Origin: an uncultured Verrucomicrobiae bacterium
GTDB taxonomy: Bacteria; Verrucomicrobiota; Verrucomicrobiia; Chthoniobacterales; JAFAMB01
DNA: 64,000 nt
Direction of reading: 5' to 3'
Assembly: GCA_963775805.1 (NCBI GenBank)
Contig: CAVZKG010000002.1
Span: forward strand, 454,693 to 518,692
Part shown: positions 842 to 15,217 of the stretch, in pieces
Position numbering within the stretch: the stretch's first letter is position 1
Layout: every line of letters begins with the position of its first letter
The notes under the pieces: model-generated
The model's database searches: none
What the model was told of the DNA's origin: nothing
Seen by the model: only the letters and a program-made list of their open reading frames with translations
Made by a program: the position numbers and the translations under genes

Positions 842-1500
842 GTGCCGGGGTGTCGGCGTATGGGCGTATGGGCGTGTCGGCGACACTTGGCTAGAATTGG
901 TATCGTCTTCGCAAAGTATCGTAGGCTTCCAGCCTGCGGCCTTTTCCCGGAGAGCAGTGATCGAGCTGAGGAGTTACCGGCGTGTCCCGTATCGGACCTG
1001 TCCCTCTCTTCCCAGAATGTCGAACGCAGAGCGTCAAACCGTGAACGCCGAACGCAAAGGAGCGTAGGCTTCCAGCCTGCGGTCTGTTCCTGGAAAGCAG
1101 TGCTCGAGCTGAGGGGGTTACTGGCGTGTCCCTCCTTCCGTCTTTAGAATTGGTATCGTCTTATGGGGACAGGACACTAGCGCGCAAACCCTAACGACCA
1201 TGAAATGAGAGATGCGAATCCGGTAATAATTGACCTGTCCCTCCTTCCATCTACAGACAGCGCAGACATCTTCCCAGAGCGTCGAACGCTTAGCGCCGAA
1301 CCGTGAACGTCGAACGCAAAGTATCGTAGGCTTCCAGCCTGCACCTTTTCCCGGAGAGCAGTACTCGAGCTGGGGAGTTACGGGCGTGTGCCGTATCCGA
1401 CCTGTCCCTCTCTTCTCTGAATTTTCTCGCGCTCCAAGAAACTGTCGCCTCGGCGCTTATCCCGAGCACGGATCGTCCATGAAATCCCTCAGATTTTAAT
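842..1500. repeat. cluster of REP-like mosaic repeats
   Basis: A ~100-nt unit starting gcaaagtatcgtaggcttccagcctgc and ending gacctgtccctctcttc occurs at ~911-1012 and ~1316-1417, about 90 percent identical by eye. A diverged copy lies at ~1053-1145. The leader cttcccaga..gtcgaacgc..ccgtgaacg.cgaac is repeated at 1008-1052 and 1270-1315. agaattggtatcgtctt occurs at 893-909 and 1147-1163. The core GACCTGTCCC occurs at 995-1004, 1232-1241 and 1399-1408. Confidence 0.75.
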
Positions 1501-2911: not shown

Positions 2912-2980
2912 AGGAAGGCGATAGCTTTCTGGCAGAAATTGAGAAGCCCTACGTACAGATGAGCGGTAGACAACGAACCC

Positions 2981-3007
2981 GCATTTCTCCGATCGAGTGA
3001 GAAATGC
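2981..3007 (+). repeat. REP-like hairpin (gcatttctc / gagaaatgc family)
   Basis: A 9-bp perfect stem gcatttctc (2981-2989) / gagaaatgc (2999-3007) encloses a 9-nt loop. Related hairpins occur at 16804-16852 and 21806-21856. Confidence 0.6.
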
Positions 3008-3107
3008 GCACCGAGCTCCGACAATCGTCCGAGTGAAATGTTTCTGGAGAATGCAAGAGTGTGAGCACCCGGCGAAAATGACAATTGGGTTTCTGGATGG
3101 GATGACC

Positions 3108-4115
3108 TCAGCCGCTTGGTTGGACTCGCGGTTCCCGTAAGACCCAAAGCCGCTCAGAACGGTCCAGCACCGTCAACGGCGTGCCGGTGTGCTCGCGTTT
3201 GTAACCAAGCTTTGTCTTTAGTTTAGAGAAATGCGATTCCACAAAGGCCTGACTTCCCAGGATCACTCCATCGGTGAAGTAGCGGATCCGGCAACGCAAA
3301 ACTTCGGGCAGGGAGAGTTCGCCATTTTGTTCATCCACCACAGTTTGAGCGGTGCGCAGATCGAAGGCCCGGTGATTGGCTTTGGTATTCAAACTCCCGT
3401 GTACGAAGAGGTATTTGCGATACTCGCGGCTGACTTCTTTCCAGGAAGCTGTCTCTGGCTGACCCAGTATTGTTCTAATCCCCTGGCGTGCCAACTCACA
3501 ACCCTTGCCGAGCGCCTCGCCATAACCGCAATAGCGATAATCTTTAGGATCGGCACACAGGCCTGCCCGAACCGGGTTGAGGTCGATGTAAGCAGCAACG
3601 GCGGCCAATGCCTCACCCCCTTCAAGCAGAACACTCTTAAAACGCTCTGCCCAAAGCACCCCGTAGCGACCATGACGTCGGTTGTAGCCTTGGGCGAAGC
3701 GACCTTTAAGTTCCTTGACGAAAATCGAGATATCGTACATGCGCCTGCGGTAGGGCCCCAAGAGTCGTTGGATCGGACCGGCGCCATCCGGTTGCTGACG
3801 CAAGCGCTCTAGCTCCTGTTCGAGAGCTTGGCGACGCGCCGGGCCGTAGCCGGCCTCGATACGTTCAAGTAGCTCGAGCTCGGAAAGCGCTTTGGCCTCG
3901 GGCACTTCGCACAGAATGTGGAAGTGATTAGACATCAGGGCATAGGTCAAAACCCGTACACCGCTAAAGGCCTCCAGCCGTCGCATGAGTCGCACAAATC
4001 GTTCGGCCTCAGCGGAGCCGTGAGCGGAAGCATGGAAAATGAATAGACGGTCGACCACCCTGGAAACGCAGTGGTAGAAACTCTGACCCTCAGCCTTGAC
4101 GCGCGGAAATCTCAT
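3108..4115 (-). CDS. Y1 (HUH) tyrosine transposase, IS200/IS605 TnpA-like, REP-associated (RAYT) type
   Basis: The track ORF is 3108..4163. The likely start is the ATG at 4115 (MRFPRVKAEGQSFYHCVSRVVDR...). It has the HUH motif in LMSNHFHILCEV and the distal block RHGRYGVLWAERFKSVLL...YIDLNPVRAGL. There is no tnpB and no IS termini, and it is flanked by REP-like repeats. Confidence 0.7.
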   Translation of the reverse strand: MRFPRVKAEGQSFYHCVSRVVDRLFIFHASAHGSAEAERFVRLMRRLEAFSGVRVLTYALMSNHFHILCEVPEAKALSELELLERIEAGYGPARRQALEQELERLRQQPDGAGPIQRLLGPYRRRMYDISIFVKELKGRFAQGYNRRHGRYGVLWAERFKSVLLEGGEALAAVAAYIDLNPVRAGLCADPKDYRYCGYGEALGKGCELARQGIRTILGQPETASWKEVSREYRKYLFVHGSLNTKANHRAFDLRTAQTVVDEQNGELSLPEVLRCRIRYFTDGVILGSQAFVESHFSKLKTKLGYKREHTGTPLTVLDRSERLWVLREPRVQPSG

Positions 4116-4189
4116 CGGTGTGCGGCGCAACATACACAACATAATAAGAAAGTGTAGTGACATTTGCTCGGATACACCAATATTTGACC

Positions 4190-4225
4190 TGTCCCTCCTT
4201 CCGTCTTTGTCCCTCCTTCCGTCTT
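4190..4225 (+). repeat. perfect 18-bp tandem duplication tgtccctccttccgtctt x2
   Basis: 4190-4207 is identical to 4208-4225. The first copy is preceded by gacc, giving the core GACCTGTCCC at 4186-4195. This is inverted relative to 2691-2700 and 2810-2819 on the other side of the transposase gene. Confidence 0.9.
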
Positions 4226-4346
4226 GTCTTTACACATATCGCGGGCTGCAGTCACGTTCGTACGCCTCTGATGCGCCAAAGCAAAAAGCAGGGTCCTCTC
4301 GAAGCCGGGCGCAACGTTCCTGGTTCCGGGGGGTTAAATCGGCGCA

Positions 4347-4670: not shown

Positions 4671-4864
4671 GTCCCATTTAGGCGCAAGTGATTGGCCCAA
4701 GTTGTTTCCGTACCCCAACAACTGGGCCGGCGTCTATGGATTCCCCGGGGAACCGGATAAACTGAACCGGCCTTGGCCGATGTCCGGCCGTTCGGTTTGG
4801 TCAGAATCTTTTCCAAAGCACTTTCCCAAATGTAATTGGCTTAAGTGCTTGGTTATAAGGCCTT

Positions 4865-4909
4865 TGTCCCCGCCGGGAATCGAACCCGGATTTAAGGTTT
4901 AGGAAACCT
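4865..4909 (-). repeat. 45-bp perfect copy of the 3' half of tRNA-Arg(CCT), a candidate distal att site
   Basis: tgtccccgccgggaatcgaacccggatttaaggtttaggaaacct at 4865-4909 is identical to 7999-8043 in the same orientation. It is not a complete tRNA, because the 5' half is missing. Confidence 0.9.
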
Positions 4910-4980
4910 ATAATATCTCCTGGGGGAGGTGGGTATTTTTCTTGAAATGTGTGCTTTAGAGACATGGCCCGATCCGAAAA

Positions 4981-5189
4981 GTGGGTGATCTACGCCCTGC
5001 TTCCGACCACGGGCTTGAGCCAGGCGACGTTGGGGTCGTCGTCCACGTACACCTCACAATGAGGCTTACGAAGTCGAGTTTGTAAAGCTGGCGGGACAGA
5101 CAGCCGCGATTGTTACTGCGTCAGCCGGCTAAATTCGGCCGATTGGCAAAGATGAGATTCCGCATACGCGGGAACTGGCGCACCGTTAG
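4981..5189 (+). pseudogene. DUF4926-like gene disrupted by frameshifts
   Basis: Three frames read in succession give GDLRPASDHGLEPGDVGVVVHV / HNEAYEVEFVKLAGQTAAIVTASAG / IRPIGKDEIPHTRELAHR. As I recall the family, the GDVG.VVHV...AYEVEF pattern is its hallmark. No single frame stays open. Confidence 0.35.
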
Positions 5190-5269
5190 CTAGCGCAAAT
5201 CCTGGCCGAACAGAGCATTGGAGATCGGTCAGCAGCCACGTATAGAAACAATCTGAGAGGACGAGCGAG

Positions 5270-5608
5270 ATGCCATCCGAGAAACCTGGAAAAATCACTT
5301 TCAAGGGTAAGATCGATCCACGATTGATCCCCACCGACGCCGCACCTGGTTATGAGATTGTCGATGCCAAGGTGACAGAGACGGGTGTCGACGTTTGGCT
5401 TTCAGATGGCAGAGTCATTATCACTCCGCTCTCGTGGTATCCAACTTTGGAAGCTGCAAGTCCAAAACAGCGTAAGGCGTTCGAGAATTGGGGAGTTGGA
5501 CTAGCGTGGGAAAACTTGGACTTCCACTTAAGTGTTGAAAGAATGCTTGCTGGGACGAGGAGCTGTTTCTCTAGATTTCAGGTGACCGCTCCAGATTATG
5601 GCCAGTAG
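5270..5608 (+). CDS. DUF2442 domain protein
   Basis: This is a 112-aa ORF. The segment VWLSDGRVIITPLSWYPTLEAASPKQRKAFENWGVGLAWENLDFHLSVERMLAG matches the DUF2442 pattern (PLSWYPRL...A.P..R..W....G..I.W..LDEDISVEGLL). Confidence 0.7.
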   Translation: MPSEKPGKITFKGKIDPRLIPTDAAPGYEIVDAKVTETGVDVWLSDGRVIITPLSWYPTLEAASPKQRKAFENWGVGLAWENLDFHLSVERMLAGTRSCFSRFQVTAPDYGQ

Positions 5609-5614
5609 GCGAGA

Positions 5615-5638
5615 TTGCAAAAACGGTGGTTTTTGCAA
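5615..5638 (+). terminator. 10-bp perfect hairpin after the DUF2442 gene; terminator function is uncertain
   Basis: ttgcaaaaac (5615-5624), loop ggtg, gtttttgcaa (5629-5638). The stem is AT-rich and no separate U-tract follows. Confidence 0.3.
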
Positions 5639-5743
5639 CTGCCAGAACGCAGTCATTCCACTACGCTCTGCGGCTCGTTGTAGAAAAAAGATGCTCTGGT
5701 GGACATCAAACGAGTAAGTTGTCGAAACTGTACGCACCGAAGA

Positions 5744-6127
5744 ATGAGAATTGGCGAACTCGCGAAATCCGTCGATGTGAACGTCGAAACAATTCGATAT
5801 TACCAGCGTATCGGACTACTGGGACTTCCGCAAAAACCCTACGGAGGGACCCGGTCCTATAGCGGCGACGATCTGAGGAGGCTGCGCTTCATCCGTCGCG
5901 CTCAGCGGATTGGATTTTCGCTGGAAGATATTCGAGCGCTTTTGGAGCTTTCGAGTTCCGATTGCAAACAGGTTGGAAAACTTGCTGCCGAAAAGCTAAC
6001 CCTGGTTCACACGAAGCTAATACAATTGCGCAGGATCGAATCGATCCTCACGAAGACCGTTGAACAATGCGCCAGCCGCAAAGGGCACCAACCTTGTCCG
6101 ATCATCGAGACGCTCAGTCAATCCTGA
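5744..6127 (+). CDS. merR: Hg(II)-responsive MerR family transcriptional regulator
   Basis: The start is the ATG at 5744 (the track ORF starts at 5699). It has an N-terminal HTH MRIGELAKSVDVNVETIRYYQRIGLL. The metal-binding Cys pattern SSDC...CASRKGHQPCP corresponds to the three conserved MerR cysteines. Confidence 0.85.
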   Translation: MRIGELAKSVDVNVETIRYYQRIGLLGLPQKPYGGTRSYSGDDLRRLRFIRRAQRIGFSLEDIRALLELSSSDCKQVGKLAAEKLTLVHTKLIQLRRIESILTKTVEQCASRKGHQPCPIIETLSQS

Positions 6128-6135
6128 AGTAGCTA

Positions 6136-6167
6136 TTGACACCGTACCCTAGTACGGCGCTTAAGGT
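6136..6167 (+). promoter_or_regulatory. MerR operator/promoter (merOP-like)
   Basis: The sequence reads TTGACA (6136-6141), CCGTAC-ccta-GTACGG dyad (6142-6157), cgct, TAAGGT (6162-6167), giving a 20-bp spacer between the hexamers. Compare Tn501 TTGACTCCGTACATGAGTACGGAAGTAAGGT, quoted from memory. It lies 14 nt upstream of the merT ATG. Confidence 0.8.
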
Positions 6168-6180
6168 GAGGCTCAGAGAT

Positions 6181-6549
6181 ATGTCTGAGCTGAATAAACC
6201 TAATGCTACCCAAAGCGCAAAAGGCTTCTTGGTGGCGGGGATTCTTGCGGCTGTTGGAGCGTCGATCTGCTGCGTCGGGCCCCTCGTGTTGCTGGCGCTT
6301 GGCGTTAGTGGTGCCTGGATCGGCTCACTGACAGCGCTCGAACCGTACCGTCCGCTTTTTATTGGACTGACGCTTCTCTTCCTCGGGTTCGCGTTTCACC
6401 GCCTCTATTTCGCACGTCGACCTTGCGCTCCAGGGTCGGCCTGCGCGAATCCGCGCACCCTAAAACACCAGCGCTTGGCATTCTGGATCGTTACGATCCT
6501 GGTGCTCGGCCTAATTTCCGTACCGTGGCTGGCGCCACTATTTTATTGA
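6181..6549 (+). CDS. merT: mercuric ion transporter MerT
   Basis: The start is the ATG at 6181 (MSELNKPN...). It has three TM helices, a vicinal Cys pair in TM1 (GASICCVGPLVLLALG) and a second cytoplasmic Cys pair (RPCAPGSAC). Confidence 0.85.
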   Translation: MSELNKPNATQSAKGFLVAGILAAVGASICCVGPLVLLALGVSGAWIGSLTALEPYRPLFIGLTLLFLGFAFHRLYFARRPCAPGSACANPRTLKHQRLAFWIVTILVLGLISVPWLAPLFY

Positions 6550-6551
6550 TT

Positions 6552-6842
6552 ATGAAATCGCATAAGAACCGTCTTGCCCTACTCACTGCCCTCGTGGCGT
6601 TTCCCTTTAGTCTGTTTGCTGGGACCTTACAAACCGTCACTCTCGAGGTGAGGAATATGACCTGCGCGGTCTGTCCGATCACGGTCAAGAAGGCATTGGG
6701 AAAAGTGCCTGGGGTAACGGACGCGAAAGTGGATTTTGATAAGAAAACTGCCAGCGTTTCGTTTGACCCTGATAAAGCGGATGTCGCTCAACTAACCAAA
6801 GCGACTGCAGACGCGGGCTATCTTTCCTCTGTCCGTAATTGA
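6552..6842 (+). CDS. merP: periplasmic mercuric ion binding protein MerP
   Basis: The ATG at 6552 lies 2 nt after the merT stop. It has a signal peptide, then an HMA fold with the NMTCAVCP (GMTCxxC-type) motif. Confidence 0.85.
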   Translation: MKSHKNRLALLTALVAFPFSLFAGTLQTVTLEVRNMTCAVCPITVKKALGKVPGVTDAKVDFDKKTASVSFDPDKADVAQLTKATADAGYLSSVRN

Positions 6843-6850
6843 ATGCGGCT

Positions 6851-7069
6851 ATGAACGAGGCTCTCCAAGAATCCGTGCTGGTCTGCCCCGTTTGCGGCTT
6901 CGCTAAGCGAGAAACGATGCCAACCAATGCCTGCCAATTCTTCTACGAGTGCTCTAACTGCAAAACGCTGCTACGCCCTAAGCCCGGCGATTGCTGCGTC
7001 TTTTGTTCTTACGGTTCGGTGAAATGTCCGCCAATGCAGGGCGAAAATCACATCTGCGCTGCTGGCTAG
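6851..7069 (+). CDS. GDCCVxC domain-containing protein (Cys form)
   Basis: It has an N-terminal CPVC, a central CSNC and the C-terminal motif PGDCCVFCSYGSVKCPP. This small Cys-rich family is, as I recall, frequently linked to mer operons. The start is the ATG at 6851 (the track starts at TTG 6839). Confidence 0.65.
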   Translation: MNEALQESVLVCPVCGFAKRETMPTNACQFFYECSNCKTLLRPKPGDCCVFCSYGSVKCPPMQGENHICAAG

Positions 7070-7100
7070 CTGAACCAATCCACTCCCACAGAGCCCAGTT

Positions 7101-7721
7101 ATGAAGAAATCTATTAGCCAGGAAACTGTTACTTTTTACGATGTGCCGTTAGTATGCGGAGCTGCACCATCGATTGGTTGCGGCAGTCGAGCTAAGCCAC
7201 TCTTGTTAGATCTCGAGCGGCAAAGTGCAATCAAAGAGGTTTGGTTGAACCGGACGGGAACGATAGTAGCGATCGTATGGCATGACGAACCACACATGGA
7301 AGAAGCCGGCAAACCGATCTTCAAAAGGCATGAAGTAGAATACAATGAACTGCGCGGCGATAAGCCCGACTCTCTTCGAATTGACGAGGGCTGGTTTCGT
7401 GGCGCCGAAGTGGATCATCTAAGCTTGGAAGAAGCGCGAGAAATTGCGGAAACCTTGGTGGCCCTGGTAGGCAAGGAGCGGTTGACCTCTATTGAGGAAG
7501 CCGCGCAGATCAAATCCGACATTGAACACTACTTTCGGAAAGAGCTGATCAAGATTCGAACTAAACAAGAATTGCTGCACGACACGCAAGACAAGTTCCG
7601 AAAGGCGGTTCTTAACATCTTTCAGAAGCATGTCGGGACGGAACGAGCGAGCGAGGTACAGGCGCGCATCCAAAACCCATTCGCCATAGCAGAAAAGGCA
7701 GAGACCTCTAGCTGTTGTTGA
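7101..7721 (+). CDS. unassigned cytoplasmic Cys-containing protein, last gene of the mer-like operon
   Basis: This is a 206-aa ORF. The N-terminal ~65 aa looks like a ferredoxin-like/HMA-type module with an extended Cys loop (VTFYDVPLVCGAAPSIGCGSRAKP...VWLNRTGTIVAIVWHD). It continues with a helical Glu/Lys-rich region and ends in a vicinal pair ...AETSSCC. No TM segment or signal peptide is present. Confidence 0.6.
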   Translation: MKKSISQETVTFYDVPLVCGAAPSIGCGSRAKPLLLDLERQSAIKEVWLNRTGTIVAIVWHDEPHMEEAGKPIFKRHEVEYNELRGDKPDSLRIDEGWFRGAEVDHLSLEEAREIAETLVALVGKERLTSIEEAAQIKSDIEHYFRKELIKIRTKQELLHDTQDKFRKAVLNIFQKHVGTERASEVQARIQNPFAIAEKAETSSCC

Positions 7722-7998
7722 GGGGAAAGCCGACCCAGGTCGTTTGTTCGAATTTCCTGTGCGACTTTCACATGGATCTCCGCCCGGCAAGCGGGTTACG
7801 GCTGATCCCCGAGAGCGAGTCGCTCGAAACTAGAAAGTGAGGTTTCGCCGATTAAACGACCGATGGGCAGATAATCCGACGAGCCGTTTGCGTGTGTGTT
7901 TTGTGTGTGTCTTTCAGTGATCGAGCTTGATGGATTGTGAGGCCCGGTGAGATTCGGTGATCTCTCGTAAGCTCCTCGTAATTAGCATAATCTAATCA

Positions 7999-8070
7999 TG
8001 TCCCCGCCGGGAATCGAACCCGGATTTAAGGTTTAGGAAACCTCCGTTCTATCCGTTGAACTACGGAGAC
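7999..8070 (-). tRNA. tRNA-Arg (anticodon CCT)
   Basis: The reverse complement is GTCTCCGTAGTTCAACGGATAGAACGGAGGTTTCCTAAACCTTAAATCCGGGTTCGATTCCCGGCGGGGACA. It folds into a cloverleaf with a 7-bp acceptor, D arm GTTC/GAAC, anticodon stem GAGGT/ACCTT, loop TTCCTAA and T arm CCGGG-TTCGATT-CCCGG. No CCA is encoded. Confidence 0.9.
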
Positions 8071-8573: not shown

Positions 8574-8749
8574 AGCCGGAACAAACCATTGCACGTGGCG
8601 TCGGGCGAGCAGATTTCTAGACGTAAGGACAAAGCATTTTTGCAGTTGAAAAAATGAGTTTCGTCTCCAAGTGCGTAGCACTGGTCTTTCTTTTTGTCGG
8701 TAGAACCTGATTTGCAAGAGCCCTCACGGAAATGCTCTGCTCGTTTTGG

Positions 8750-9763
8750 TTACGGCATCTCCTGCTGGCCTGACGCCATCGAGCGTACCATCGCTTCGAG
8801 CACGCGCATCGCCGTTACACCATCGATGATCGTGGGCGCATCGTTCGGCTCGCCTCTTACCGCGGCAAGGAATGCCGATAACAACGCTTGGTAGCCCTTA
8901 TGGTCTTCGTTTGCCGCGGCAGTCAGATTCGGCTCCCACATCAGGGTGTCCTCCTGCGGATCGAGCGTCGCGTCGGCAGCGTTCGCTTTGAACGCCGGGT
9001 TGCGGTAGTAGCGAACCTCATGAACGTTTCGGATTTCCAAGCGCTGATGGTCGCCCATCACCTGCCACCACTCCATTGGCGTGCCGCGCGATTGATTCGT
9101 GCCCATCACGACAGTCGCAAGCGCGCCGGATTTGAATTCGAAGCTAACGTGCAGAACTAGTTTTCCTGGTTCGATCTCATGAGATCGTGCGTGAACGCTT
9201 TTCACCGGCTCACCCATCAGCCAAGGGACAAGGTCCATTGCGTGCACGCAGTGATGCAACAGGAAGCCGGTATAGTCAGGGTTGCCAACGAAATAGCTCG
9301 GCGCGGTCATGTACTCGCCAAGCAGACTGGCCGGAGTTCCGAAGGAGGGAGTGCGCAATATGTTCCCTGCGATTCGATTCGCGGTTGAATAGCGCTTCAT
9401 AAAGCCGACAACGCAAGGCTTCCCAGCGCGCGCCGCTTCATCAGCGAGACGTTGGGCGGCCTTCGCGGTCGGAGCAGGCGGCTTTTCCATGAAAACCGGC
9501 AAGCCGAGTGACAGCGCCTGCAGACCCAACTCGACATGAACGGCAGGCCCCACGGCCATACCGATTGCGTCCAGCCCTTGATGAGCAAGCATTTGACCCG
9601 CATCGGCATAGCGCGCGGCGACACCGTACCGGTTGCCGATCTGTTCCAGGCTCTTTCCGTCGACATCGCAAAGAGCTGCGATCTTCACAGGTAGCCGCAC
9701 GAGTTGAGGCAACAGCATTTCGCTCGCATGCGTGCCACACCCGATCCATCCGATATTGATCAT
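8750..9763 (-). CDS. Gfo/Idh/MocA family NAD(P)-dependent oxidoreductase
   Basis: It has the N-terminal Rossmann motif MINIGWIGCGTHA and the EKP motif (VFMEKPPA), in 337 aa. The start overlaps the upstream stop in an ATGA. Confidence 0.85.
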   Translation of the reverse strand: MINIGWIGCGTHASEMLLPQLVRLPVKIAALCDVDGKSLEQIGNRYGVAARYADAGQMLAHQGLDAIGMAVGPAVHVELGLQALSLGLPVFMEKPPAPTAKAAQRLADEAARAGKPCVVGFMKRYSTANRIAGNILRTPSFGTPASLLGEYMTAPSYFVGNPDYTGFLLHHCVHAMDLVPWLMGEPVKSVHARSHEIEPGKLVLHVSFEFKSGALATVVMGTNQSRGTPMEWWQVMGDHQRLEIRNVHEVRYYRNPAFKANAADATLDPQEDTLMWEPNLTAAANEDHKGYQALLSAFLAAVRGEPNDAPTIIDGVTAMRVLEAMVRSMASGQQEMP

Positions 9764-10668
9764 TCGATCCGCCTTGCCGCATGTAGTGCGGCGCGCAGGA
9801 ATGCGCCGCTGTGATGAAGATCCAGATCCTCGTCATAGGAGGGCGCACGCCACTGTGCGAGCGGAAGTGACAACAATGTTTCGGTGCGGCGGAATGGTTC
9901 CAAGGTGATCGGGCCGCGATAATTGAGTTCGGCCAGCACATGGCAAATCTCCGCCCAGTCGATATGGCCAGTTCCCAGATAGCCGCGATGATTTTCGTTA
10001 GCCTGGAAATGGACCAGGTAAGCGGCGGCCCTCCTTATTGCCCGCCCAAGGTCGTCTTCCTCCATGTTCATGTGGAAGGTATCGAGCATGATTTTTACAG
10101 CCGGACTTCCCACCTGCGTGGCCAACTCGACTGCCTGCCGGGCGGTATTGCAAAAGTCCGTTTCGAATCGGTTGAGCGGCTCGATGGCAAATTCCACTCC
10201 ATGTTGCACGGCGTAGTCACCGGCCTCCTTGAGGCCTGCGACCACCCTCTGAATTCGCGCGAGCCGATGGGGCTCATCGATGGGCCCGGGCAAACGGCCG
10301 GCGAAGACGAGGGGTGCACCGTAAATGGGGCCGCCAATGATTTTTGCACCAGCAGCCACGGCTATGTCTACACAATGCATTAGATAGGCAATTCCACCTT
10401 GATGTTCCGAGGGATCATCAGACGCCAGATTGCGTTGCGGAGTGATCCGCGCGGCAAAGACGAGTGACAGACCTGCTTGTGTTGCCGCGCGTCCCACGTC
10501 GGCCGGATCGAGCTCCCCCTCTTCCGGGACAAGTAGTTCGCAAAAATCCATCCCGGCCGCCTTCATCCGATCGAAAAGCGGATAGTGCGCGGACGTGAAC
10601 GGTCTGATGTAAGTCATCGAATTCACGCCGATCGTCGGCATCCATTTCTCTTCGTTCGTGTTTCTCAT
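9760..10668 (-). CDS. sugar phosphate isomerase/epimerase (xylose isomerase-like TIM barrel)
   Basis: The sequence shows the typical family pattern (GMDFCELLVPEE..., FAIEPLNRFETDF, LDTFHMNMEEDD, HFQANENHRG). The start is chosen at the ATG at 10668, which overlaps the permease stop (ATGA). The ATG at 10641 is an alternative. Confidence 0.8.
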   Translation of the reverse strand: MRNTNEEKWMPTIGVNSMTYIRPFTSAHYPLFDRMKAAGMDFCELLVPEEGELDPADVGRAATQAGLSLVFAARITPQRNLASDDPSEHQGGIAYLMHCVDIAVAAGAKIIGGPIYGAPLVFAGRLPGPIDEPHRLARIQRVVAGLKEAGDYAVQHGVEFAIEPLNRFETDFCNTARQAVELATQVGSPAVKIMLDTFHMNMEEDDLGRAIRRAAAYLVHFQANENHRGYLGTGHIDWAEICHVLAELNYRGPITLEPFRRTETLLSLPLAQWRAPSYDEDLDLHHSGAFLRAALHAARRIE

Positions 10669-11492
10669 CCTTTTACAGCGCCTGTTACCAAGCCTCCAAC
10701 AAGTCTGCGTTGCAGAAATAAAAATAAAACCATGGCAGGCAGGCCCACGACTGTTCCACCTGCTGTCAATAGCCCCCAATCAATTCCGTTTTCCCCAATG
10801 AACATCTGTAGTGCCACCGTCACAGTGCGCACGCGCTCGCCCGCGAGCACAAGTGCGAATAGATACTCGTTCCATGAGGTGATGAAGAGGTAGATGCCAA
10901 CGGCAACCATGCCCGGTCCAACCAGTGGCAGGATCACGAACCTCATCGCCTGAAAGCGGGTCGCGCCGTCGATCAGTGCCGCCTGATCCAGTTCAGTGGG
11001 AATTCCGTCCATGTAGCTTGTCAAAAGCCAGATCGCGAACGGCAGAGTAAAAGTCGCGTGCGCGCTGATCAGCGCAAAGTAGGTATCGAGTAGCCGGAGT
11101 TCACGCATCAGGATGAAAAGCGGCAAAATCAGCATCACGATTGGAAACATGTTGATGATTAGAAAGAGGCTGCGCAAAGCGGTTCGGCCCCGAAAACGGA
11201 AGCGGGAAAACGCGTATGCCGCCGGCAATGCCAAGCCGAGTCCGATGATAACGGTTCCCGCAGCAACGATGAGGCTATCACGCAGATTTTCCGCAAACGA
11301 AGTGCGCTCCAGCAGTTCGATGTGATGCGCAAGCGTCAACGTGCTGGGCCAGATCATGAGTGGAGTGCGAGTCATGTCGCTTTCAGGCCGAATCGAAGAG
11401 AGGAGCATCCAAAACCAGGGTCCGAGTGCGAAAGCAAGCACCGCAAGCATTGGCAACTCTGTGCAAACCAGAGTTTTGAGGCGGCGCTTCAT
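10665..11492 (-). CDS. carbohydrate ABC transporter permease (MalG-like)
   Basis: It is 275 aa with six TM helices and the EAA-loop region ELDQAALIDGATRFQAMRFVILP. Confidence 0.9.
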   Translation of the reverse strand: MKRRLKTLVCTELPMLAVLAFALGPWFWMLLSSIRPESDMTRTPLMIWPSTLTLAHHIELLERTSFAENLRDSLIVAAGTVIIGLGLALPAAYAFSRFRFRGRTALRSLFLIINMFPIVMLILPLFILMRELRLLDTYFALISAHATFTLPFAIWLLTSYMDGIPTELDQAALIDGATRFQAMRFVILPLVGPGMVAVGIYLFITSWNEYLFALVLAGERVRTVTVALQMFIGENGIDWGLLTAGGTVVGLPAMVLFLFLQRRLVGGLVTGAVKG

Positions 11493-12352
11493 TGTGCCCG
11501 CCTCCTCACGAGGGAGAGAATCATTCCACCCAGAAGAATCAAAGTAAGTATTACTGCGAGGGCTGAACCTTTCCCGTAATCGCCGCCGGACCAGGCGGTC
11601 AACATCGCGTGCAACGGCAGCGTGAGTGTAGCCCTTCCCGGTCCGCCGCCTGTCATGACAAGGATAAGATCGAGGGAATTGGCTACCCAGATCATCCGCA
11701 ACAACAACGCGGTCGCAATCACAGCGGTCAATCCGGGGATCGTGACGTGCCAGAATTTTCCCAGTGCGCTGGCGCCGTCAAGCGACGCGGCCTCGTATAG
11801 CTCCGCTGGAATTCCCTGCAGACCCGCTAGAAGCGTCACCGCAAAAAATGGGAATCCCTGCCAAATGACCGCGAGCATCACGGCGACCATCGCGGTGTCT
11901 GGGCGGGAGAGCCACGCGATCGGGCTTGAAATAAGCCCGAGGCGAATGCCCAACGCGTTGACGATTCCCAGGTTGAAATCCAGCATCCAGGTCCAGATGA
12001 GGCCAATTATCACGCTCGGGAGTGCCCACGGGACAATGACGAGCGCCCGAGCAATTCCGCGCCAGGCGAAGCTTCGGTTTAGTAGCAACGCGGCACCGAG
12101 ACCAAGCAGGAACTGCATCGAAACCGAACCAAAGACCCATACGAAGGAATTAAACAAGCTATGCCAAAACAGGGGATCGGCTAAAGCGTTGATGTAATTC
12201 GTCAGGCCTACGAACGGACGAGTTCTCGGGTGGAACAGGTTTACGTAGTGAAAAGACAACGATATCGCTTGAGCAACAGGAAATAACACATAGAGAGCGG
12301 TGATCAGAAGCGCGGGCGTCAGCAGAAGCCAAGGCGTCGTCGTTTTATTCAT
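11489..12352 (-). CDS. sugar ABC transporter permease (MalF-like)
   Basis: The start is the ATG at 12352 (MNKTTTPWLLLTPALLITALYVLFP), which overlaps the SBP stop (ATGA). It has the EAA loop ELYEAASLDGASALGKFWHVTIP. The track ORF extends spuriously to 12541. Confidence 0.9.
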   Translation of the reverse strand: MNKTTTPWLLLTPALLITALYVLFPVAQAISLSFHYVNLFHPRTRPFVGLTNYINALADPLFWHSLFNSFVWVFGSVSMQFLLGLGAALLLNRSFAWRGIARALVIVPWALPSVIIGLIWTWMLDFNLGIVNALGIRLGLISSPIAWLSRPDTAMVAVMLAVIWQGFPFFAVTLLAGLQGIPAELYEAASLDGASALGKFWHVTIPGLTAVIATALLLRMIWVANSLDLILVMTGGGPGRATLTLPLHAMLTAWSGGDYGKGSALAVILTLILLGGMILSLVRRRAQ

Positions 12353-13572
12353 GGGAAGAAAGTGCGCTCGAATTTTCCCATTGCGTCGTCCGGAGCCGAT
12401 TGGCCGAGCAACTCTTCCTGATTTGTTTGGGTCCAGACCGTCCGGACGAAATCCGCAGTTTGTTCCACCAGCGGAAGTGTTCGTGCCGACGCAAGCGACT
12501 GGATCGTCGCGTCGACGAAGCGTTTCGGATGGACGTTCCAATCTTTTGCTCCGGACGTTGTGACAGTCATTTGGCCGGCCAGTTTATTGAACTCCACGTT
12601 GGCCGGCGCACTGGATAGGTAAGATATCCACCGCCAGGCGGCTTCCGGGTTATCGCAGTTCGCGAATATCGCGTTGGACCCGTCTCCAAAGGTTGACCAC
12701 GCTTTACCCGTCGGTCCGCTCGGCATTGGAACCGCGGTGATCGCGTCACCCAGCTGCTGTGTCAGCTGGATCGCGGAACCGATATGGTGAATCGTCATCG
12801 CGGTGCGACCCGCTTTCATGTTGTTGATGATTTGCAGAAAACCGTCTGTGGGCGACGAGGGCGGACAGACTTTGTATTTGCGGTAGAGATCGATAAACCA
12901 TTGATTGGCGGCGAGCGCGACAGGCGTCGTAAGGCCGCCTTTCGTGAATTCGGCGCCGCCTCCGATGACAAAGGTCAACCAGAAATCGACGCCGCCCGAA
13001 TCGCCACGTAATCCGAAGCCCCAACGGTCCTTTTCGGTTAAGGCGCGCGCCGCGGTCAGAAAGTCATCAAAAGTTGTTGGCGTCTGCAGCCCTTGTTTCT
13101 GAATCCAGTCCTGACGGAGATAAAGATAAGTCGTGATGTACTGCAGTGGCAGGTAGTAGTGCTTCCCATCAGCGGCAATATGCAGCTTCCATATAGACTC
13201 CGAGATGTCGCCCCTCGGAGCCCATCCGTTCAGATAGTCATCGATAGGAAGGAGTGCTTCCATTTCGATCAACTGAGGAAGATTGCGAAGCTTTACCATC
13301 GCCGTGTCCGGACCGTGGTTGGCGATCAGGGCGGTGTACAAGCGCGTGTCATAATCGCTACCACCTCCCCACGGAATGCTTTGTGCATGGATGCTGATCC
13401 CGGGATTCGCCTTTTCGAACTCAGCAATGAGGCCGTCAGGCGATGCCTTTGGATCATCAAAGTGATACCACCAGCGGACCGTCGTATGCGTGTTGCCAAA
13501 GGCGAACAGTCGTTGGGTGAGCCCCATGGCAGCAACGGCGCCCACCGTTTTCAGTAGCGTGCGTCTTTTCAT
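12349..13572 (-). CDS. ABC transporter extracellular solute-binding protein (family 1, sugar type)
   Basis: It is 407 aa with a signal peptide carrying twin Arg (MKRRTLLKTVGAVAAMGLTQRLFA). The length and composition are typical of an SBP. Confidence 0.9.
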   Translation of the reverse strand: MKRRTLLKTVGAVAAMGLTQRLFAFGNTHTTVRWWYHFDDPKASPDGLIAEFEKANPGISIHAQSIPWGGGSDYDTRLYTALIANHGPDTAMVKLRNLPQLIEMEALLPIDDYLNGWAPRGDISESIWKLHIAADGKHYYLPLQYITTYLYLRQDWIQKQGLQTPTTFDDFLTAARALTEKDRWGFGLRGDSGGVDFWLTFVIGGGAEFTKGGLTTPVALAANQWFIDLYRKYKVCPPSSPTDGFLQIINNMKAGRTAMTIHHIGSAIQLTQQLGDAITAVPMPSGPTGKAWSTFGDGSNAIFANCDNPEAAWRWISYLSSAPANVEFNKLAGQMTVTTSGAKDWNVHPKRFVDATIQSLASARTLPLVEQTADFVRTVWTQTNQEELLGQSAPDDAMGKFERTFFP

Positions 13573-13655
13573 CCGTTTTCTCTGTCGAAACCGCCTCTAA
13601 CGGATTTTTTGTTTGGGGAGATCTTGCATCACGGGGCGTCCTATTCTTCGAACCG

Positions 13656-14552
13656 CTAGTCGAATGAGCGTCCCACGAGTCGCTCGCGGATCACTTGACT
13701 GAGAGTTCTGACTGCTGACTGCGCTTCGGGCAGCATCGCTGTCATCTGCAGAAAACCATGAACGACTCCGGGAACGTAGTCCGCCCGGCACTCAACGCCA
13801 TGCGCCACCAGTCGAGCGGTGAGGTTAACGGTGTCATCGCATAGCGGATCGAGCCCGGCACCTAGCAGATAGGTCCAAGGCAACCCGGTCAAATCGGCAT
13901 GTAATGGTGCTGCTTGCGGGTCATGCGCCTCTCCCAGCCAGTTGCCCCAATACCAGCGCATCTTCTCGGAGCTTAATCCGTAACGGCCATCGCCGTTGCG
14001 CTGATGGCAATCGTTGTTGAAGCTCGGTTCAAAGCAACCGTACAAGAGCGATAACGCAACCAAATCGGGCGGTCGATACGCCAGCGCGGTTGCGAGCGCG
14101 ATATTCGCTCCAGCCGAGTCGCCGCATAGCACCAGCGGACCAGAAGCATCAGGAAGCGACCAGACCGCGCGCACAGTTTTCCCGACGTCTTCGATCGCCG
14201 CGGGGCACGTCGCTTCGGGCGCGAGTCGATAATCCGGCACAACTACCGTTGTCGCAGAATAGATCGCAAGCAGTCGAGCGAAACGCTCGTGAGTCGCCGG
14301 CGACCCAAATGTCCAGCCGCCGCCGTGCACGAAGATTACGGTGCCTTCTTTGCGGGACGCAGGGACTATGACGCGACAAGGTACACCGTCGAGGACGACG
14401 TCTCGGGCATCGAGATCGGGGAGGGGGATATTCCAGGTAGCGGCTCTGGCGGCAAACGCGCGACGCGCTTCGCTGATATCCATTGCCTGCAAATCAGGGT
14501 CCGCCAATAGCGTATCGAGGATGCTTCGCATTTCTCGCGACATCACACTCAT
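13656..14552 (-). CDS. alpha/beta hydrolase, HSL-type esterase/lipase
   Basis: It has the oxyanion motif VHGGGWTFGS, the nucleophile elbow GDSAGAN, and distal D and H (DPLCDD, VVHGF). Confidence 0.85.
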   Translation of the reverse strand: MSVMSREMRSILDTLLADPDLQAMDISEARRAFAARAATWNIPLPDLDARDVVLDGVPCRVIVPASRKEGTVIFVHGGGWTFGSPATHERFARLLAIYSATTVVVPDYRLAPEATCPAAIEDVGKTVRAVWSLPDASGPLVLCGDSAGANIALATALAYRPPDLVALSLLYGCFEPSFNNDCHQRNGDGRYGLSSEKMRWYWGNWLGEAHDPQAAPLHADLTGLPWTYLLGAGLDPLCDDTVNLTARLVAHGVECRADYVPGVVHGFLQMTAMLPEAQSAVRTLSQVIRERLVGRSFD

Positions 14553-15217
14553 ACTGGCCTCCGCGGCAAAGGTTCATCCCTCTCCTCAATCATCGTATCC
14601 AGGTGCGTCCTCAGTTCGCGCTGCAGCGCCGTCCCATCCCGCTCCTTGATCGTCTTCAGGATGGGAAGATGCCGCTCGGCCGTCTTGCGGAGTGGTCGAT
14701 CGTGCCGAGGCGCCCACAGCTTGAAGCGTTGAGTATGCAGAATGCACCTCATCAAAATCGGCTGAATCGCGTGCAGGCCAGAAATCCGGAAAATAGACTC
14801 GTGAAATGCCATGTCCTGCTCGACCAATGCCCACAGATCGTCTTCGGCGGCGGCCTCGAACATCTTTCGGCAGATAGCCTCTAACCTGGCTAGTTCACCG
14901 TTCCCAACGCGTCGGACAACTGCGGGTGCCGCACGAACTTCGATTCGGCGACGCAGATCAAGAATCTCGACAGCAGCGTCCGCATCCAGATCAGTTACGG
15001 TTGTGCCCTTGCGCCCCTCGCGCAAAACCAGGCCTTCCCCATCGAGACGCAACAGTGCTTCCCGGACAGCAGCCTGACTGCAGCCGAGCGAAGAGGCGAG
15101 TCCCAGTTCGGTTAAAACTGTTCCAGGCTGAAGTTCATTCAGGATGATCTGCCGCCGGAGTTCTCCCAGGACCAGGGCACCGGGGGTGCTTTTAGGATCT
15201 GCGACGCGTCCTGTCAT
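14549..15217 (-). CDS. GntR family transcriptional regulator (FadR/FCD C-terminal domain)
   Basis: It has an N-terminal winged HTH (LQPGTVLTELGLASSLGCSQAAVREALLRLDGEGLV) and a helical FCD-like C-terminus. The stop overlaps the esterase start (ATGA). Confidence 0.85.
   Translation of the reverse strand: MTGRVADPKSTPGALVLGELRRQIILNELQPGTVLTELGLASSLGCSQAAVREALLRLDGEGLVLREGRKGTTVTDLDADAAVEILDLRRRIEVRAAPAVVRRVGNGELARLEAICRKMFEAAAEDDLWALVEQDMAFHESIFRISGLHAIQPILMRCILHTQRFKLWAPRHDRPLRKTAERHLPILKTIKERDGTALQRELRTHLDTMIEERDEPLPRRPV

What the first reader, a model, noticed from the sequence alone, without database searches (positions are those of the whole stretch)
4865..8070. 3.1-kb islet bounded by a perfect 45-bp duplication of the 3' half of tRNA-Arg(CCT), with no integrase
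4865-4909 is identical to 7999-8043. The latter is the 3' 45 nt of the intact minus-strand tRNA-Arg(CCT), running from the 5' strand of the anticodon stem to the discriminator. Both copies have the same orientation, and the 3' end of the intact gene faces the insert. This is the geometry left by site-specific integration into a tRNA gene with crossover in the anticodon arm. The cargo is entirely on the + strand: a frameshifted DUF4926-like gene, a DUF2442 gene, merR, merT, merP, a GDCCVxC gene and an unassigned gene. No tyrosine or serine recombinase ORF exists in any frame between the repeats or nearby. The repeats are nevertheless undegraded. By eye the cargo looks more AT-rich than the flanks, but this was not computed. 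A minimal integrase-less element mobilised in trans, or a very recent deletion of the integrase module, are both possible.
Basis: partly seen in the sequence, partly recalled or inferred. Interest (0 to 1): 0.7.

Follow-up and report, generated by a model that had tools for sequence, protein, structure and literature searches.

The report
Integrase-deleted mercury islet at tRNA-Arg
A 3.1-kb piece of foreign DNA carrying mercury-handling genes sits in a tRNA-Arg gene of a soil Verrucomicrobium; it is the worn-down remnant of an ordinary integrating genomic island whose integrase gene was deleted, with only the first ten codons left.

Summary
Bases 4865-4909 and 7999-8043 are an exact 45-bp direct repeat. 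It equals nucleotides 28-72 of the intact minus-strand tRNA-Arg(CCT) at 7999-8070. The 64-kb window contains no tyrosine recombinase.

The mechanism can be read from a scar. Bases 4910-4993 match the sequence next to the attachment core plus the first ten codons (MARSEKWVIY) of intact 394-aa tyrosine integrases. In other soil Verrucomicrobiota these integrases sit directly beside a displaced tRNA-Arg(CCT) fragment and are followed by a DUF4160/DUF2442 toxin-antitoxin pair and cargo.

In the window, about 1.3 kb of that backbone is missing: the rest of the integrase and the 5' part of the toxin gene. It is replaced by 215 bp that include a truncated, frameshifted DUF4926 fragment. The antitoxin gene survives, as does a merR-merT-merP-GDCCVxC-unknown cassette without merA.

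Both ends keep 11-nt repeats that look like integrase arm sites. Relatives show every stage of integrase loss.

So this is a decayed tRNA-gene island. It fits the published definition of a cis-mobilizable element: attachment sites kept, integrase lost. It is a new member of a known kind. Present-day mobility is untested. No empty site could be found.

The parts
4865..4909 (.). Displaced 45-bp copy of the tRNA-Arg(CCT) 3' part (distal attachment-site core). The native chromosomal flank lies to its left.
   Evidence: Exact repeat of 7999-8043. Rfam tRNA scores only 24.3 bits over 4865-4926, below threshold. The 29 nt to the left (about 4831-4859) are 24/29 identical, in register, to the flank of a displaced copy in L047, which carries a different integrase subfamily. 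There are no arm-like repeats on this side.
4910..4963 (+). Integrase-proximal arm of the element (P' side). It holds a small dyad TCTCC..GGGAG at 4917-4929 and one 11-nt unit ATGTGTGCTTT at 4947-4957.
   Evidence: Aligns with L030 and L032, which have two perfect ATGTGTGCTTT units at the same distance from the core just upstream of intact integrase genes. The window lacks the second unit.
4964..4993 (+). Remnant of the integrase gene: start codon plus 9 codons (MARSEKWVIY). Homology to the integrase stops after this.
   Evidence: Identical to the N-terminus of the intact 394-aa integrases P0126 and P0133. 29/30 nt are identical to L032. blastn pairs 4865-4992 with L030 8292-8430.
4994..5207 (+). 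Filler of about 215 bp that replaces 1,295 bp of the backbone. It contains a 5'-truncated, frameshifted DUF4926 fragment at 5005-5175.
   Evidence: 5005-5191 is 76.6% identical to L035 11478-11665 (DUF4926 codon 16 to the stop plus 17 nt). tblastn gives 82% over 38 aa, with the rest in another frame.
5194..5307 (+). 3' remnant of the DUF4160 gene (toxin of a dhiTA-type pair). About the last 35-44 codons remain, with no start.
   Evidence: tblastn with the DUF4160 proteins of L030 and L035. At the DNA level, homology to L030 resumes at 5208, which corresponds to L030 9726, codon 47 of 80.
5270..5608 (+). Intact DUF2442 gene (antitoxin partner), now without its toxin.
   Evidence: Pfam PF10387, E 3e-15. 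93% aa and 91% nt identity to the DUF2442 gene that follows integrase-DUF4160 in L030. Homology ends at 5560, inside the 3' end, where the cargo begins to differ.
5744..6127 (+). merR.
   Evidence: TIGR02051 MerR, E 1e-42, plus Pfam MerR_1 and MerR-DNA-bind.
6136..6167 (+). MerR-type operator and promoter: TTGACA, dyad CCGTAC-CCTA-GTACGG, TAAGGT, with a long spacer.
   Evidence: Read directly from the sequence. The resemblance to the Tn501/Tn21 mer operator is from my own knowledge. The simple promoter scan does not cover 19-20-nt spacers.
6181..7069 (+). merT (6181-6549), merP (6552-6842) and a GDCCVxC gene (6851-7069).
   Evidence: PF02411 at 1e-38, TIGR02052 at 5e-28, NF041374 at 9e-31. The same trio occurs at 67% nt identity on many proteobacterial plasmids.
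7101..7721 (+). 206-aa protein of an uncharacterised family that travels with merT-merP. It has conserved Cys19 and Cys27 and a C-terminal Cys-Cys.
   Evidence: No Pfam, NCBIfam or PDB sequence match. 278 homologues at E <= 0.001, the best non-self at 70% identity. Found beside merT-merP in L012-L014. Conservation.
7826..7998 (+). tRNA-proximal arm of the element (P side). Two 11-nt units, GTGTGTGTTTT and GTGTGTGTCTT, lie at 7892-7913, followed by 85 nt up to the core.
   Evidence: Homologous to the sequence left of the 45-mer in L028 (78% over 162 nt), L007, L001, L003, L024 and L025. Conservation starts at the repeat units. 11-nt tandem units at about -107 to -118 occur in several sequence types that match the integrase-side units. 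The motif is unique in the window.
7999..8070 (-). Intact tRNA-Arg(CCT). Its 3' 45 nt (7999-8043) are the second copy of the repeat.
   Evidence: ARAGORN. Rfam tRNA 66.5 bits. An identical 45-mer occurs in tRNA-Arg(CCT) genes of 10 other Verrucomicrobiota/Chthoniobacterales genomes.

Best explanation
The segment 4910-7998 is the decayed remnant of a tyrosine-integrase genomic island.

The island entered tRNA-Arg(CCT) by site-specific recombination within the 45-bp identity block, with the crossover probably in the anticodon loop. Integration regenerated the tRNA gene at 7999-8070 and displaced the original 3' part to 4865-4909.

The parent belonged to a family found in soil Verrucomicrobiota. 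Read from the displaced fragment toward the tRNA, its order is: core, short arm with two 11-nt repeats, integrase, DUF4160 toxin, DUF2442 antitoxin, variable cargo, second arm with two 11-nt repeats, tRNA.

In this genome a deletion or replacement removed the integrase from codon 11 onward together with the 5' part of the toxin gene. It left the antitoxin gene, a regulated merR-merT-merP-GDCCVxC-unknown cassette, both cores and most of both arms.

Without its own recombinase the islet is fixed in place unless a related integrase acts on it in trans.

Shown here: the repeat, the tRNA, the homology of the left end to intact elements, the missing 1.3 kb, and the absence of any integrase in 64 kb.

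Inferred: the order of events, the crossover position, the arm-site role of the repeats, the view that toxin loss made the deletion tolerable, and present immobility.
For: Repeat and tRNA:
- Exact 45-bp repeat equal to tRNA positions 28-72.

Homology of the left end to intact elements:
- Window 4865-4992 aligns with L030 8292-8430 and L032 90-228. Those stretches comprise the displaced tRNA-Arg fragment, a 65-nt spacer with ATGTGTGCTTT twice, and the first 29-30 nt of the intact integrase genes P0126 and P0133. The N-terminus MARSEKWVIY is identical.
- Homology to L030 resumes at 5208-5560 at 91%, covering the DUF4160 3' end and DUF2442. So L030 8431-9725 (1,295 bp) corresponds to only 215 bp in the window.

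Backbone in relatives:
- The order integrase, DUF4160, DUF2442, beside a displaced tRNA-Arg fragment, is seen in L030, L031, L035, L036, L037 and L025. L032 has the integrase beside a displaced tRNA-Arg fragment, with DUF2442 about 5 kb downstream among the cargo and no DUF4160.
- DUF4160/DUF2442 is listed as a type II toxin-antitoxin pair, dhiTA, in Dickeya (PMC8198452).

Integrase erosion at this site is common:
- Intact integrases: L026/L027, L030, L032, L033/L034, L047.
- Damaged integrases (frameshifted, 5'-deleted, internally deleted, or lacking the start codon): L006, L017, L019, L025, L029, L035, L036.
- Integrase absent beside the displaced fragment: L022, L023, L024, L028.

Arm repeats:
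- 11-nt tandem units lie about 32-37 nt from the core on the integrase side. Their sequence is subfamily-specific: GTGTGTGTCTT, ATGTGTGCTTT or AAAATGCTACA.
- Units of the same types lie about 107-118 nt from the core on the other side. The GCTACA type appears in L026.
- Flanks of displaced copies that sit next to chromosomal genes lack such units.

Other:
- No integrase in the window.
- The geometry matches the main class of mapped tRNA-gene islands (PMC4383910).
Against: - No related genome with an empty site could be found, so presence/absence polymorphism is not demonstrated. There were 0 exact hits for the predicted empty junction in JGI metagenomes. The closest relatives lose synteny at 8746 and lack the tRNA there.
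- Base composition barely differs from the chromosome.
- No integrase-bearing relative was recovered with both ends on one contig. The tRNA-proximal arm is therefore assigned by inference.
- The conserved 107-nt block also lies left of displaced copies in several contigs (L017, L024, L025, L028, L029). That requires tandem or fossil elements there.
- The arm next to the tRNA carries GTGTGTGT-type units, while the integrase-side arm carries the ATGTGTGCTTT type. The DUF4926 fragment is out of the order seen in L035. The remnant may therefore be a mosaic of more than one element.
- The source is probably a metagenome-assembled contig, so the single frameshift in DUF4926 could be a sequencing error. 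The truncations could not.
Confidence: 0.8

Rival explanations
1. The islet is a working cis-mobilizable element. It has no recombinase of its own, but its intact cores and arms are still excised and re-integrated by a related integrase encoded elsewhere in the genome or on an incoming island.
For: - Both 45-bp cores are perfect.
- Both arms retain repeat units.
- Intact integrases of the same subfamily exist in the environment (P0126, P0133).
- Tandem arrangements that would allow co-mobilisation appear to occur at this site (L026, L035).
- Such elements are recognised in the literature (PMC5704250).
Against: - No cognate integrase in 64 kb.
- The integrase-side arm has lost one of its two repeat units.
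- No second copy of this islet or its cargo is seen anywhere: the best non-self hit to the 206-aa protein is 70% identical.
- No empty or circular junction was found.
- Integrases of this family are often decayed, which suggests fixation rather than traffic.
Confidence: 0.15
2. The segment is a composite of two or more elements fused by accretion and internal deletion. It is not a single island that lost one gene block.
For: - The repeat-unit types differ between the two arms.
- The DUF4926 fragment lies upstream of DUF2442, whereas in L035 DUF4926 follows DUF2442.
- Homology to L030 ends inside DUF2442, where the cargo changes.
- Remnant islets between two tRNA fragments exist, for example L035 9219-10046.
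Against: - There is no third tRNA fragment, even a degenerate one, inside or near the islet.
- The two unit types differ by only a few bases within a shared 11-nt frame, so one integrase type could bind both.
- This reading is compatible with the main explanation rather than opposed to it.
Confidence: 0.2
3. The conserved block 7826-7998 is the native chromosomal flank of the tRNA, not part of the element. The foreign DNA would then end near 7825, and the geometry would not be a simple insertion at the tRNA 3' end.
For: The same block lies next to displaced copies in L017, L024, L025, L028 and L029, where the simple model expects chromosomal flank. The region upstream of the tRNA is likewise conserved for about 150 nt across these genomes.
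Against: - In the window, the flank of the displaced copy is of another type. It is shared with L047, where it adjoins a different integrase subfamily. That is what a native flank looks like.
- Conservation of the block begins exactly at the 11-nt repeat units.
- Repeat units of matching types occur on both sides of the core.
- L016/L018 and L021 share 83-90% identity upstream of the tRNA but differ immediately downstream. Only L021 has the block.
- Nothing left of L028's block matches the window's left flank.
Confidence: 0.12
4. The repeat is not an integration product. It arose by local duplication of half a tRNA gene, or it is an assembly artefact joining two contexts at a shared 45-mer.
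For: The sequence probably comes from a metagenome assembly. Short-read assemblies do break at this 45-mer: L031 starts inside it.
Against: - The sequence next to the displaced copy is homologous to the integrase-side end of elements found beside the same tRNA fragment in many independent assemblies.
- The contig is reported as 861,585 bp, which suggests a long-read assembly.
- A chimeric join would not produce a matched pair of element ends.
Confidence: 0.02

Closest known systems
Genomic islands integrated in tRNA/tmRNA genes by tyrosine integrases, as mapped by Islander (PMC4383910)
   Same: The target gene is regenerated and a 3' fragment displaced, in direct orientation. The identity block starts in the anticodon arm. 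This is the 'anticodon-centred' class, 2083 of 3919 islands, with 3' fragments in 3760.
   Different: Islander requires an integrase gene inside the island, and this one has only 10 codons left. At 3.1 kb it is very small. The related integrases are divergent, matching PF00589 at only 27-35 bits with no recognised N-terminal domain.
Cis-mobilizable elements (CIMEs) of streptococci: elements that lost integration and transfer genes but kept attL and attR (PMC5704250)
   Same: Both attachment sites are retained and the recombinase lost by decay of a larger element. Tandem arrangements with other elements at the same tRNA site are seen in relatives.
   Different: The parent here shows no conjugation or mobilisation genes in any relative examined. 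The host is Verrucomicrobiota, not Firmicutes. Mobilisation in cis has not been tested.
Phage-lambda-type attP architecture with arm-type integrase binding sites (own knowledge)
   Same: Short direct repeats lie on both sides of the core, at about -107 and +35, in the same orientation. Their sequence changes with integrase subfamily.
   Different: Binding has not been tested. No arm-binding domain is recognised in the integrases. The integrase-side repeats also overlap the likely integrase promoter region and could be regulatory instead.
dhiTA, the DUF4160/DUF2442 type II toxin-antitoxin pair of Dickeya dadantii (PMC8198452)
   Same: The same domain pair, with overlapping genes, follows the integrase in relatives.
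   Different: In the window only the last third of the toxin gene remains, while the antitoxin gene is intact. Toxicity of the verrucomicrobial pair is untested.
mer operons. The merR-merT-merP-GDCCVxC cluster without merA on plasmids such as Pseudomonas veronii NZ_CP039632.3
   Same: Same gene trio merT-merP-GDCCVxC with merR, and no merA. A MerR-type operator lies upstream of merT.
   Different: Only 67% nt identity. merR is co-directional rather than divergent. An extra 206-aa Cys-containing protein of unknown family follows. The cluster is carried by a tRNA island remnant, not a Tn3-type transposon.

Membership tests
tRNA-gene-integrated genomic island (tyrosine integrase type) | Intact tRNA gene plus a displaced fragment of the same gene in direct orientation, bounding the element | tested here: met
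   45/45 identity, same orientation, tRNA intact.
tRNA-gene-integrated genomic island (tyrosine integrase type) | Tyrosine integrase gene inside the element next to one attachment site | tested here: not met
   Only codons 1-10 remain, at 4964-4993. There is no PF00589-like ORF in 64 kb. The feature is met in relatives L030, L032, L033, L027 and L047.
tRNA-gene-integrated genomic island (tyrosine integrase type) | Presence/absence polymorphism (an empty site in relatives) | tested here: inconclusive
   0 hits for the empty junction. The closest relatives are not syntenic at the tRNA. Other genomes with the same tRNA have other occupants or flanks.
tRNA-gene-integrated genomic island (tyrosine integrase type) | Composition distinct from the host chromosome | tested here: inconclusive
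   GC 52.2% against 54.1% (6th percentile). Tetranucleotide distance is not unusual.
Cis-mobilizable element (CIME) | attL and attR retained | tested here: met
   Both 45-bp cores are perfect. Both arms are recognisable, one with a unit missing.
Cis-mobilizable element (CIME) | Integration and transfer genes lost by decay of a larger element | tested here: met
   The integrase deletion scar. No transfer genes were seen in any relative either, so the parent is an integrative island, not a proven ICE or IME.
Cis-mobilizable element (CIME) | Excision or transfer when a cognate element supplies the recombinase | not testable with these tools
   Needs the complete genome, reads from the sample, or an experiment.
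mer (mercury resistance) operon | MerR regulator with its operator, MerT and MerP | tested here: met
   The operator was read from the sequence at 6136-6167.
mer (mercury resistance) operon | Mercuric reductase MerA | tested here: not met
   There is no Pyr_redox-type ORF in the islet: every ORF is assigned. A MerA-like gene follows the homologous cluster only in L012.
DUF4160/DUF2442 (dhiTA-type) toxin-antitoxin pair | Both genes intact and adjacent | tested here: not met
   DUF2442 is intact. DUF4160 is reduced to its 3' end.
   Related integrases P0121, P0125, P0126 and P0137 match only PF00589, at 27-35 bits.

The most novel reading that the evidence does not exclude
The islet is still a functional, integrase-less passenger. 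Its perfect cores and repeat-bearing arms are recognised by P0126-type integrases of co-resident or incoming islands. A merA-less mercury cassette would then move between soil Verrucomicrobiota as a cis- or trans-mobilised element. The subfamily-specific 11-nt repeats on both arms would be the code that decides which integrase can move which remnant.
Probability: 0.15. Interest if true: 0.5.

Novelty: new member of a known kind. Interest (0 to 1): 0.3.

Why it matters
The result turns an apparent puzzle, an att-bounded island with no recombinase, into a documented case of island decay with a readable scar.

It also gives a first sketch of a family of tRNA-Arg(CCT)-specific islands in soil Verrucomicrobiota, a phylum whose mobile elements are little described. 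The family has an integrase plus toxin-antitoxin backbone, variable cargo (mercury genes here, phage-defence genes in relatives) and candidate arm sites that vary with integrase subfamily.

Island finders that demand an integrase will miss such remnants. The many stages of integrase loss at this one site give material for studying how islands become fixed.

None of this changes current understanding of how tRNA-gene islands work.

Tried and rejected
Empty site:
- An exact search for the predicted junction (9 nt of left flank, the 45-mer, then the start of the tRNA 5' half) found nothing in JGI metagenomes.
- The 11 species-representative genomes with the same 45-mer share no flank genes with the window.

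Synteny route:
- The closest relatives by the GFO oxidoreductase (83-86% aa, 82% nt across 8746-14553) lose synteny exactly at 8746. They have no tRNA there, so they are useless as comparators.

The window's own contig:
- It could not be extended. Its proteins are not in the position index and carry no accession.

Complete integrase-bearing element with both ends:
- None was recovered. L030 extends more than 10 kb without reaching a tRNA. L031 begins inside the 45-mer but ends elsewhere. L047 ends just after the integrase.

Other searches that led nowhere:
- Viral contig collection: no copy of the 45-mer or its variants.
- Composition: not informative.
- Rfam: nothing in the islet or its arms except the tRNA and its fragment.
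- The Y1 (RAYT-type) transposase at 3108-4163 was considered as the agent. It was rejected because such enzymes do not make tRNA-fragment repeats, and the element ends match a tyrosine-integrase family.
- Flank similarity to L010 looked suggestive by eye but was not above shuffled background.
- Structure prediction of the 206-aa protein gave low confidence (pLDDT 58), so no fold search was run.

Full report
OBSERVATION

Bases 4865-4909 and 7999-8043 are identical over 45 nt in the same orientation. No third copy exists in the 64-kb window, even a degenerate one. A 25-mer search with three mismatches has a chance expectation of 0.00.

ARAGORN and Rfam (66.5 bits) find an intact 72-nt tRNA-Arg(CCT) at 7999-8070 on the minus strand. 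With the anticodon at 34-36, the repeat is tRNA positions 28-72. That runs from the second base of the 5' strand of the anticodon stem to the 3' end. The 3' end of the gene faces the insert.

The 3,089 bp between the repeats carry only + strand genes:
- DUF2442, 5270-5608
- merR, 5744-6127
- merT, 6181-6549
- merP, 6552-6842
- a GDCCVxC gene, 6851-7069
- a 206-aa gene without any family assignment, 7101-7721

There is no merA. A MerR-type operator and promoter (TTGACA, CCGTAC-CCTA-GTACGG, TAAGGT) lies at 6136-6167. I read this from the sequence; the comparison with Tn501/Tn21 is from my own knowledge.

GC is 52.2% against 54.1% for the window (6th percentile). Tetranucleotide usage is unremarkable. 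The 'AT-rich' impression is therefore marginal.

HOST AND TARGET

The identical 45-mer occurs in 11 species-representative genomes, all Verrucomicrobiota, mostly labelled Verrucomicrobiae, Chthoniobacterales or Spartobacteria. In ten it is part of an intact tRNA-Arg(CCT). In one (L006) it is a fragment.

A metagenome scan for the 45-mer not followed by C gave 15 more contigs. Eleven of these are fragments next to non-tRNA sequence.

THE SCAR

Right of such fragments, several contigs carry a tyrosine integrase gene reading away from the fragment. A protein search with the intact one from L027 recovered full-length 380-396-aa relatives. Their contigs show a recurrent backbone: tRNA-Arg fragment, about 65 nt of spacer, integrase, DUF4160, DUF2442, then variable cargo.

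The window's left end belongs to this family.
- Window 4865-4992 aligns with L030 8292-8430 and L032 90-228.
- The 30 nt from the ATG at 4964 encode MARSEKWVIY, identical to the N-terminus of the intact 394-aa integrases P0126 and P0133. 29 of the 30 nt are identical to L032.
- Homology then stops and resumes at 5208-5560, which is 91% identical to L030 9726-10078. That stretch is the last third of DUF4160 plus DUF2442; the DUF2442 protein is 93% identical.
- So 1,295 bp of the L030 backbone (integrase codon 11 to its end, plus the first 140 nt of DUF4160) correspond to 215 bp in the window.
- Most of those 215 bp (5005-5191) are a DUF4926 fragment. It starts at codon 16 and is frameshifted, 76.6% identical to the DUF4926 gene that follows DUF2442 in L035.
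- Homology to L030 ends at 5560, inside the 3' end of DUF2442. That is where the cargo differs.

No tyrosine recombinase is encoded anywhere in the window.

DUF4160/DUF2442 is listed as a type II toxin-antitoxin pair (dhiTA) in Dickeya (PMC8198452). The deletion took the toxin's 5' part and left the antitoxin. That is the tolerated direction of loss; this last point is inference.

DECAY IS COMMON AT THIS SITE

Among the contexts recovered:
- The integrase is intact in L026/L027, L030, L032, L033/L034 and L047.
- It is frameshifted in L006, L029 and L036.
- It is 5'-deleted in L025, internally deleted in L017, lacks its start codon in L019, and is truncated in L035.
- It is absent beside the fragment in L022, L023, L024 and L028.

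L035 also has a second, degenerate tRNA fragment 780 bp from the first. This shows tandem remnants. The window's islet is the far end of this series.

THE ENDS

On the integrase side, about 32-37 nt from the core, elements carry two 11-nt direct repeats just upstream of the integrase start. The repeat sequence goes with the integrase subfamily:
- GTGTGTGTCTT in L006, L033 and L036
- ATGTGTGCTTT, twice and perfect, in L030 and L032
- AAAATGCTACA, twice and perfect, in L047

The window has one ATGTGTGCTTT unit (4947-4957) and lacks the second.

On the other side, a block of about 107 nt lies immediately left of the 45-mer. It begins with two 11-nt units: GTGTGTGTTTT and GTGTGTGTCTT at window 7892-7913. 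The block is conserved in the window, L007, L001, L003, L028, L017, L024 and L025, and the conservation starts exactly at the repeats. At the same distance L026 has GCTACA-type units and L008 has CCACACAA-type units.

Flanks of displaced fragments that adjoin ordinary chromosomal genes (L030, L033, L047 and the window's own left flank) have no such units. The window's left flank is 24/29 identical, in register, to the flank in L047, where a different integrase subfamily is inserted. That is what a native flank looks like.

I therefore read 7826-7998 as the element's tRNA-proximal arm, and the repeats as arm-type integrase sites on both arms. This is inference. No integrase-bearing relative was recovered with both ends. 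The same block lies left of displaced fragments in several contigs, which requires tandem or fossil elements there. The rival reading, that the block is native flank, gets 0.12.

WHAT IT IS AND HOW IT WORKS

The best-supported account is as follows.
1. An island of this family recombined with tRNA-Arg(CCT) within the 45-bp identity block. This is the anticodon-centred class that dominates mapped tRNA-gene islands (PMC4383910). The recombination regenerated the gene and displaced its old 3' part.
2. Later a deletion or replacement removed the integrase and the toxin's 5' part.
3. What remains is an att-bounded, recombinase-less islet carrying an apparently intact, MerR-regulated mercury uptake and binding cassette.

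[quoted passage not shown] However, the parent shows no transfer genes, and mobilisation is untested.

The cargo is ordinary in kind. merT-merP-GDCCVxC clusters at 67% identity are common on proteobacterial plasmids. One example, with merR and no merA, lies beside a Tn3 transposase.

WHAT COULD NOT BE DONE

No empty site was found. The closest relatives, at 82% nt identity across 8746-14553, lose synteny exactly at 8746 and have no tRNA there. The window's own contig could not be extended. The viral collection holds no copy of the core.

VERDICT

This is a new member of a known kind, of modest interest. Its main value is the clean scar and the outline of a verrucomicrobial tRNA-Arg island family with candidate subfamily-specific arm sites.

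Noticed in passing
window 7101-7721; L012 10001-10699; L013 9572-10186: The 206-aa protein belongs to an uncharacterised family. 278 homologues have E <= 0.001, most 204-212 aa. The family has invariant Cys19 and Cys27 in LVCGAAPxIGCGSRAKPLL and a C-terminal Cys-Cys. In the three contexts examined (L012-L014) it lies next to merT-merP, and in L012 a MerA-like reductase follows. It has no Pfam, NCBIfam or PDB match. It is a candidate new mercury-handling protein.
   Followed up: partly
window 5744-7069; L046 (NZ_CP039632.3) 2970-4305: merR-merT-merP-GDCCVxC clusters without merA recur, here and on a Pseudomonas veronii IncP plasmid beside a Tn3-family transposase. Mercury import without a reductase needs explaining.
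   Followed up: partly
L032 4534-11384; L030 11831-15704: Relatives with the same integrase backbone carry phage-defence cargo. L032 has AbiEi/AbiEii, a reverse transcriptase and a SIR2 plus Piwi pair. L030 has DACNG/DACNH and HEPN_AbiU2. The family therefore acts as a defence-island vehicle at tRNA-Arg(CCT).
   Followed up: no
window 900-1500, 2680-2912, 3108-4163, 4179-4225: The left flank holds several families of 60-114-nt direct repeats and a 22-28-nt motif (..TGACCTGTCCCTCCTTCCGTCT) at 1116, 1225 and 4179. They surround a 351-aa Y1 transposase that matches the REP-associated tyrosine transposase (RAYT) model only below its cut-off (58.4 bits against 80). This looks like a REP/RAYT system.
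   Followed up: no
window 8746: Synteny with the closest relatives (L041-L045, about 82% nt over the sugar-utilisation operon 8746-14553) stops exactly after the GFO gene. Dodecin, tRNA-Arg, the islet and everything to the left are absent there.
   Followed up: partly
window 4865-4931; L035 10001-10073; L036 9695-9767; L037 2618-2690: The element sequence just beyond the core carries a small dyad where the tRNA D-arm would be. The displaced fragment plus element sequence therefore looks tRNA-like. ARAGORN calls whole 'tRNAs' in L035-L037, one with a changed anticodon. Rfam gives 24.3 bits in the window.
   Followed up: partly
L024 1474-1560: Another displaced tRNA-Arg fragment is followed by a different pair of 11-nt repeats (GTTGCCAAACG / GTTGCCAAAAG) but has no integrase within 8.8 kb. 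This is a second integrase-less derivative with its own repeat type.
   Followed up: no
L035 9219-9265 and 10002-10046: Two tRNA-Arg-like fragments lie 780 bp apart. The outer one is degenerate and the inner one has its anticodon changed to CGT. They bracket a LysR gene fragment: a tiny remnant islet in tandem with a decayed island.
   Followed up: partly
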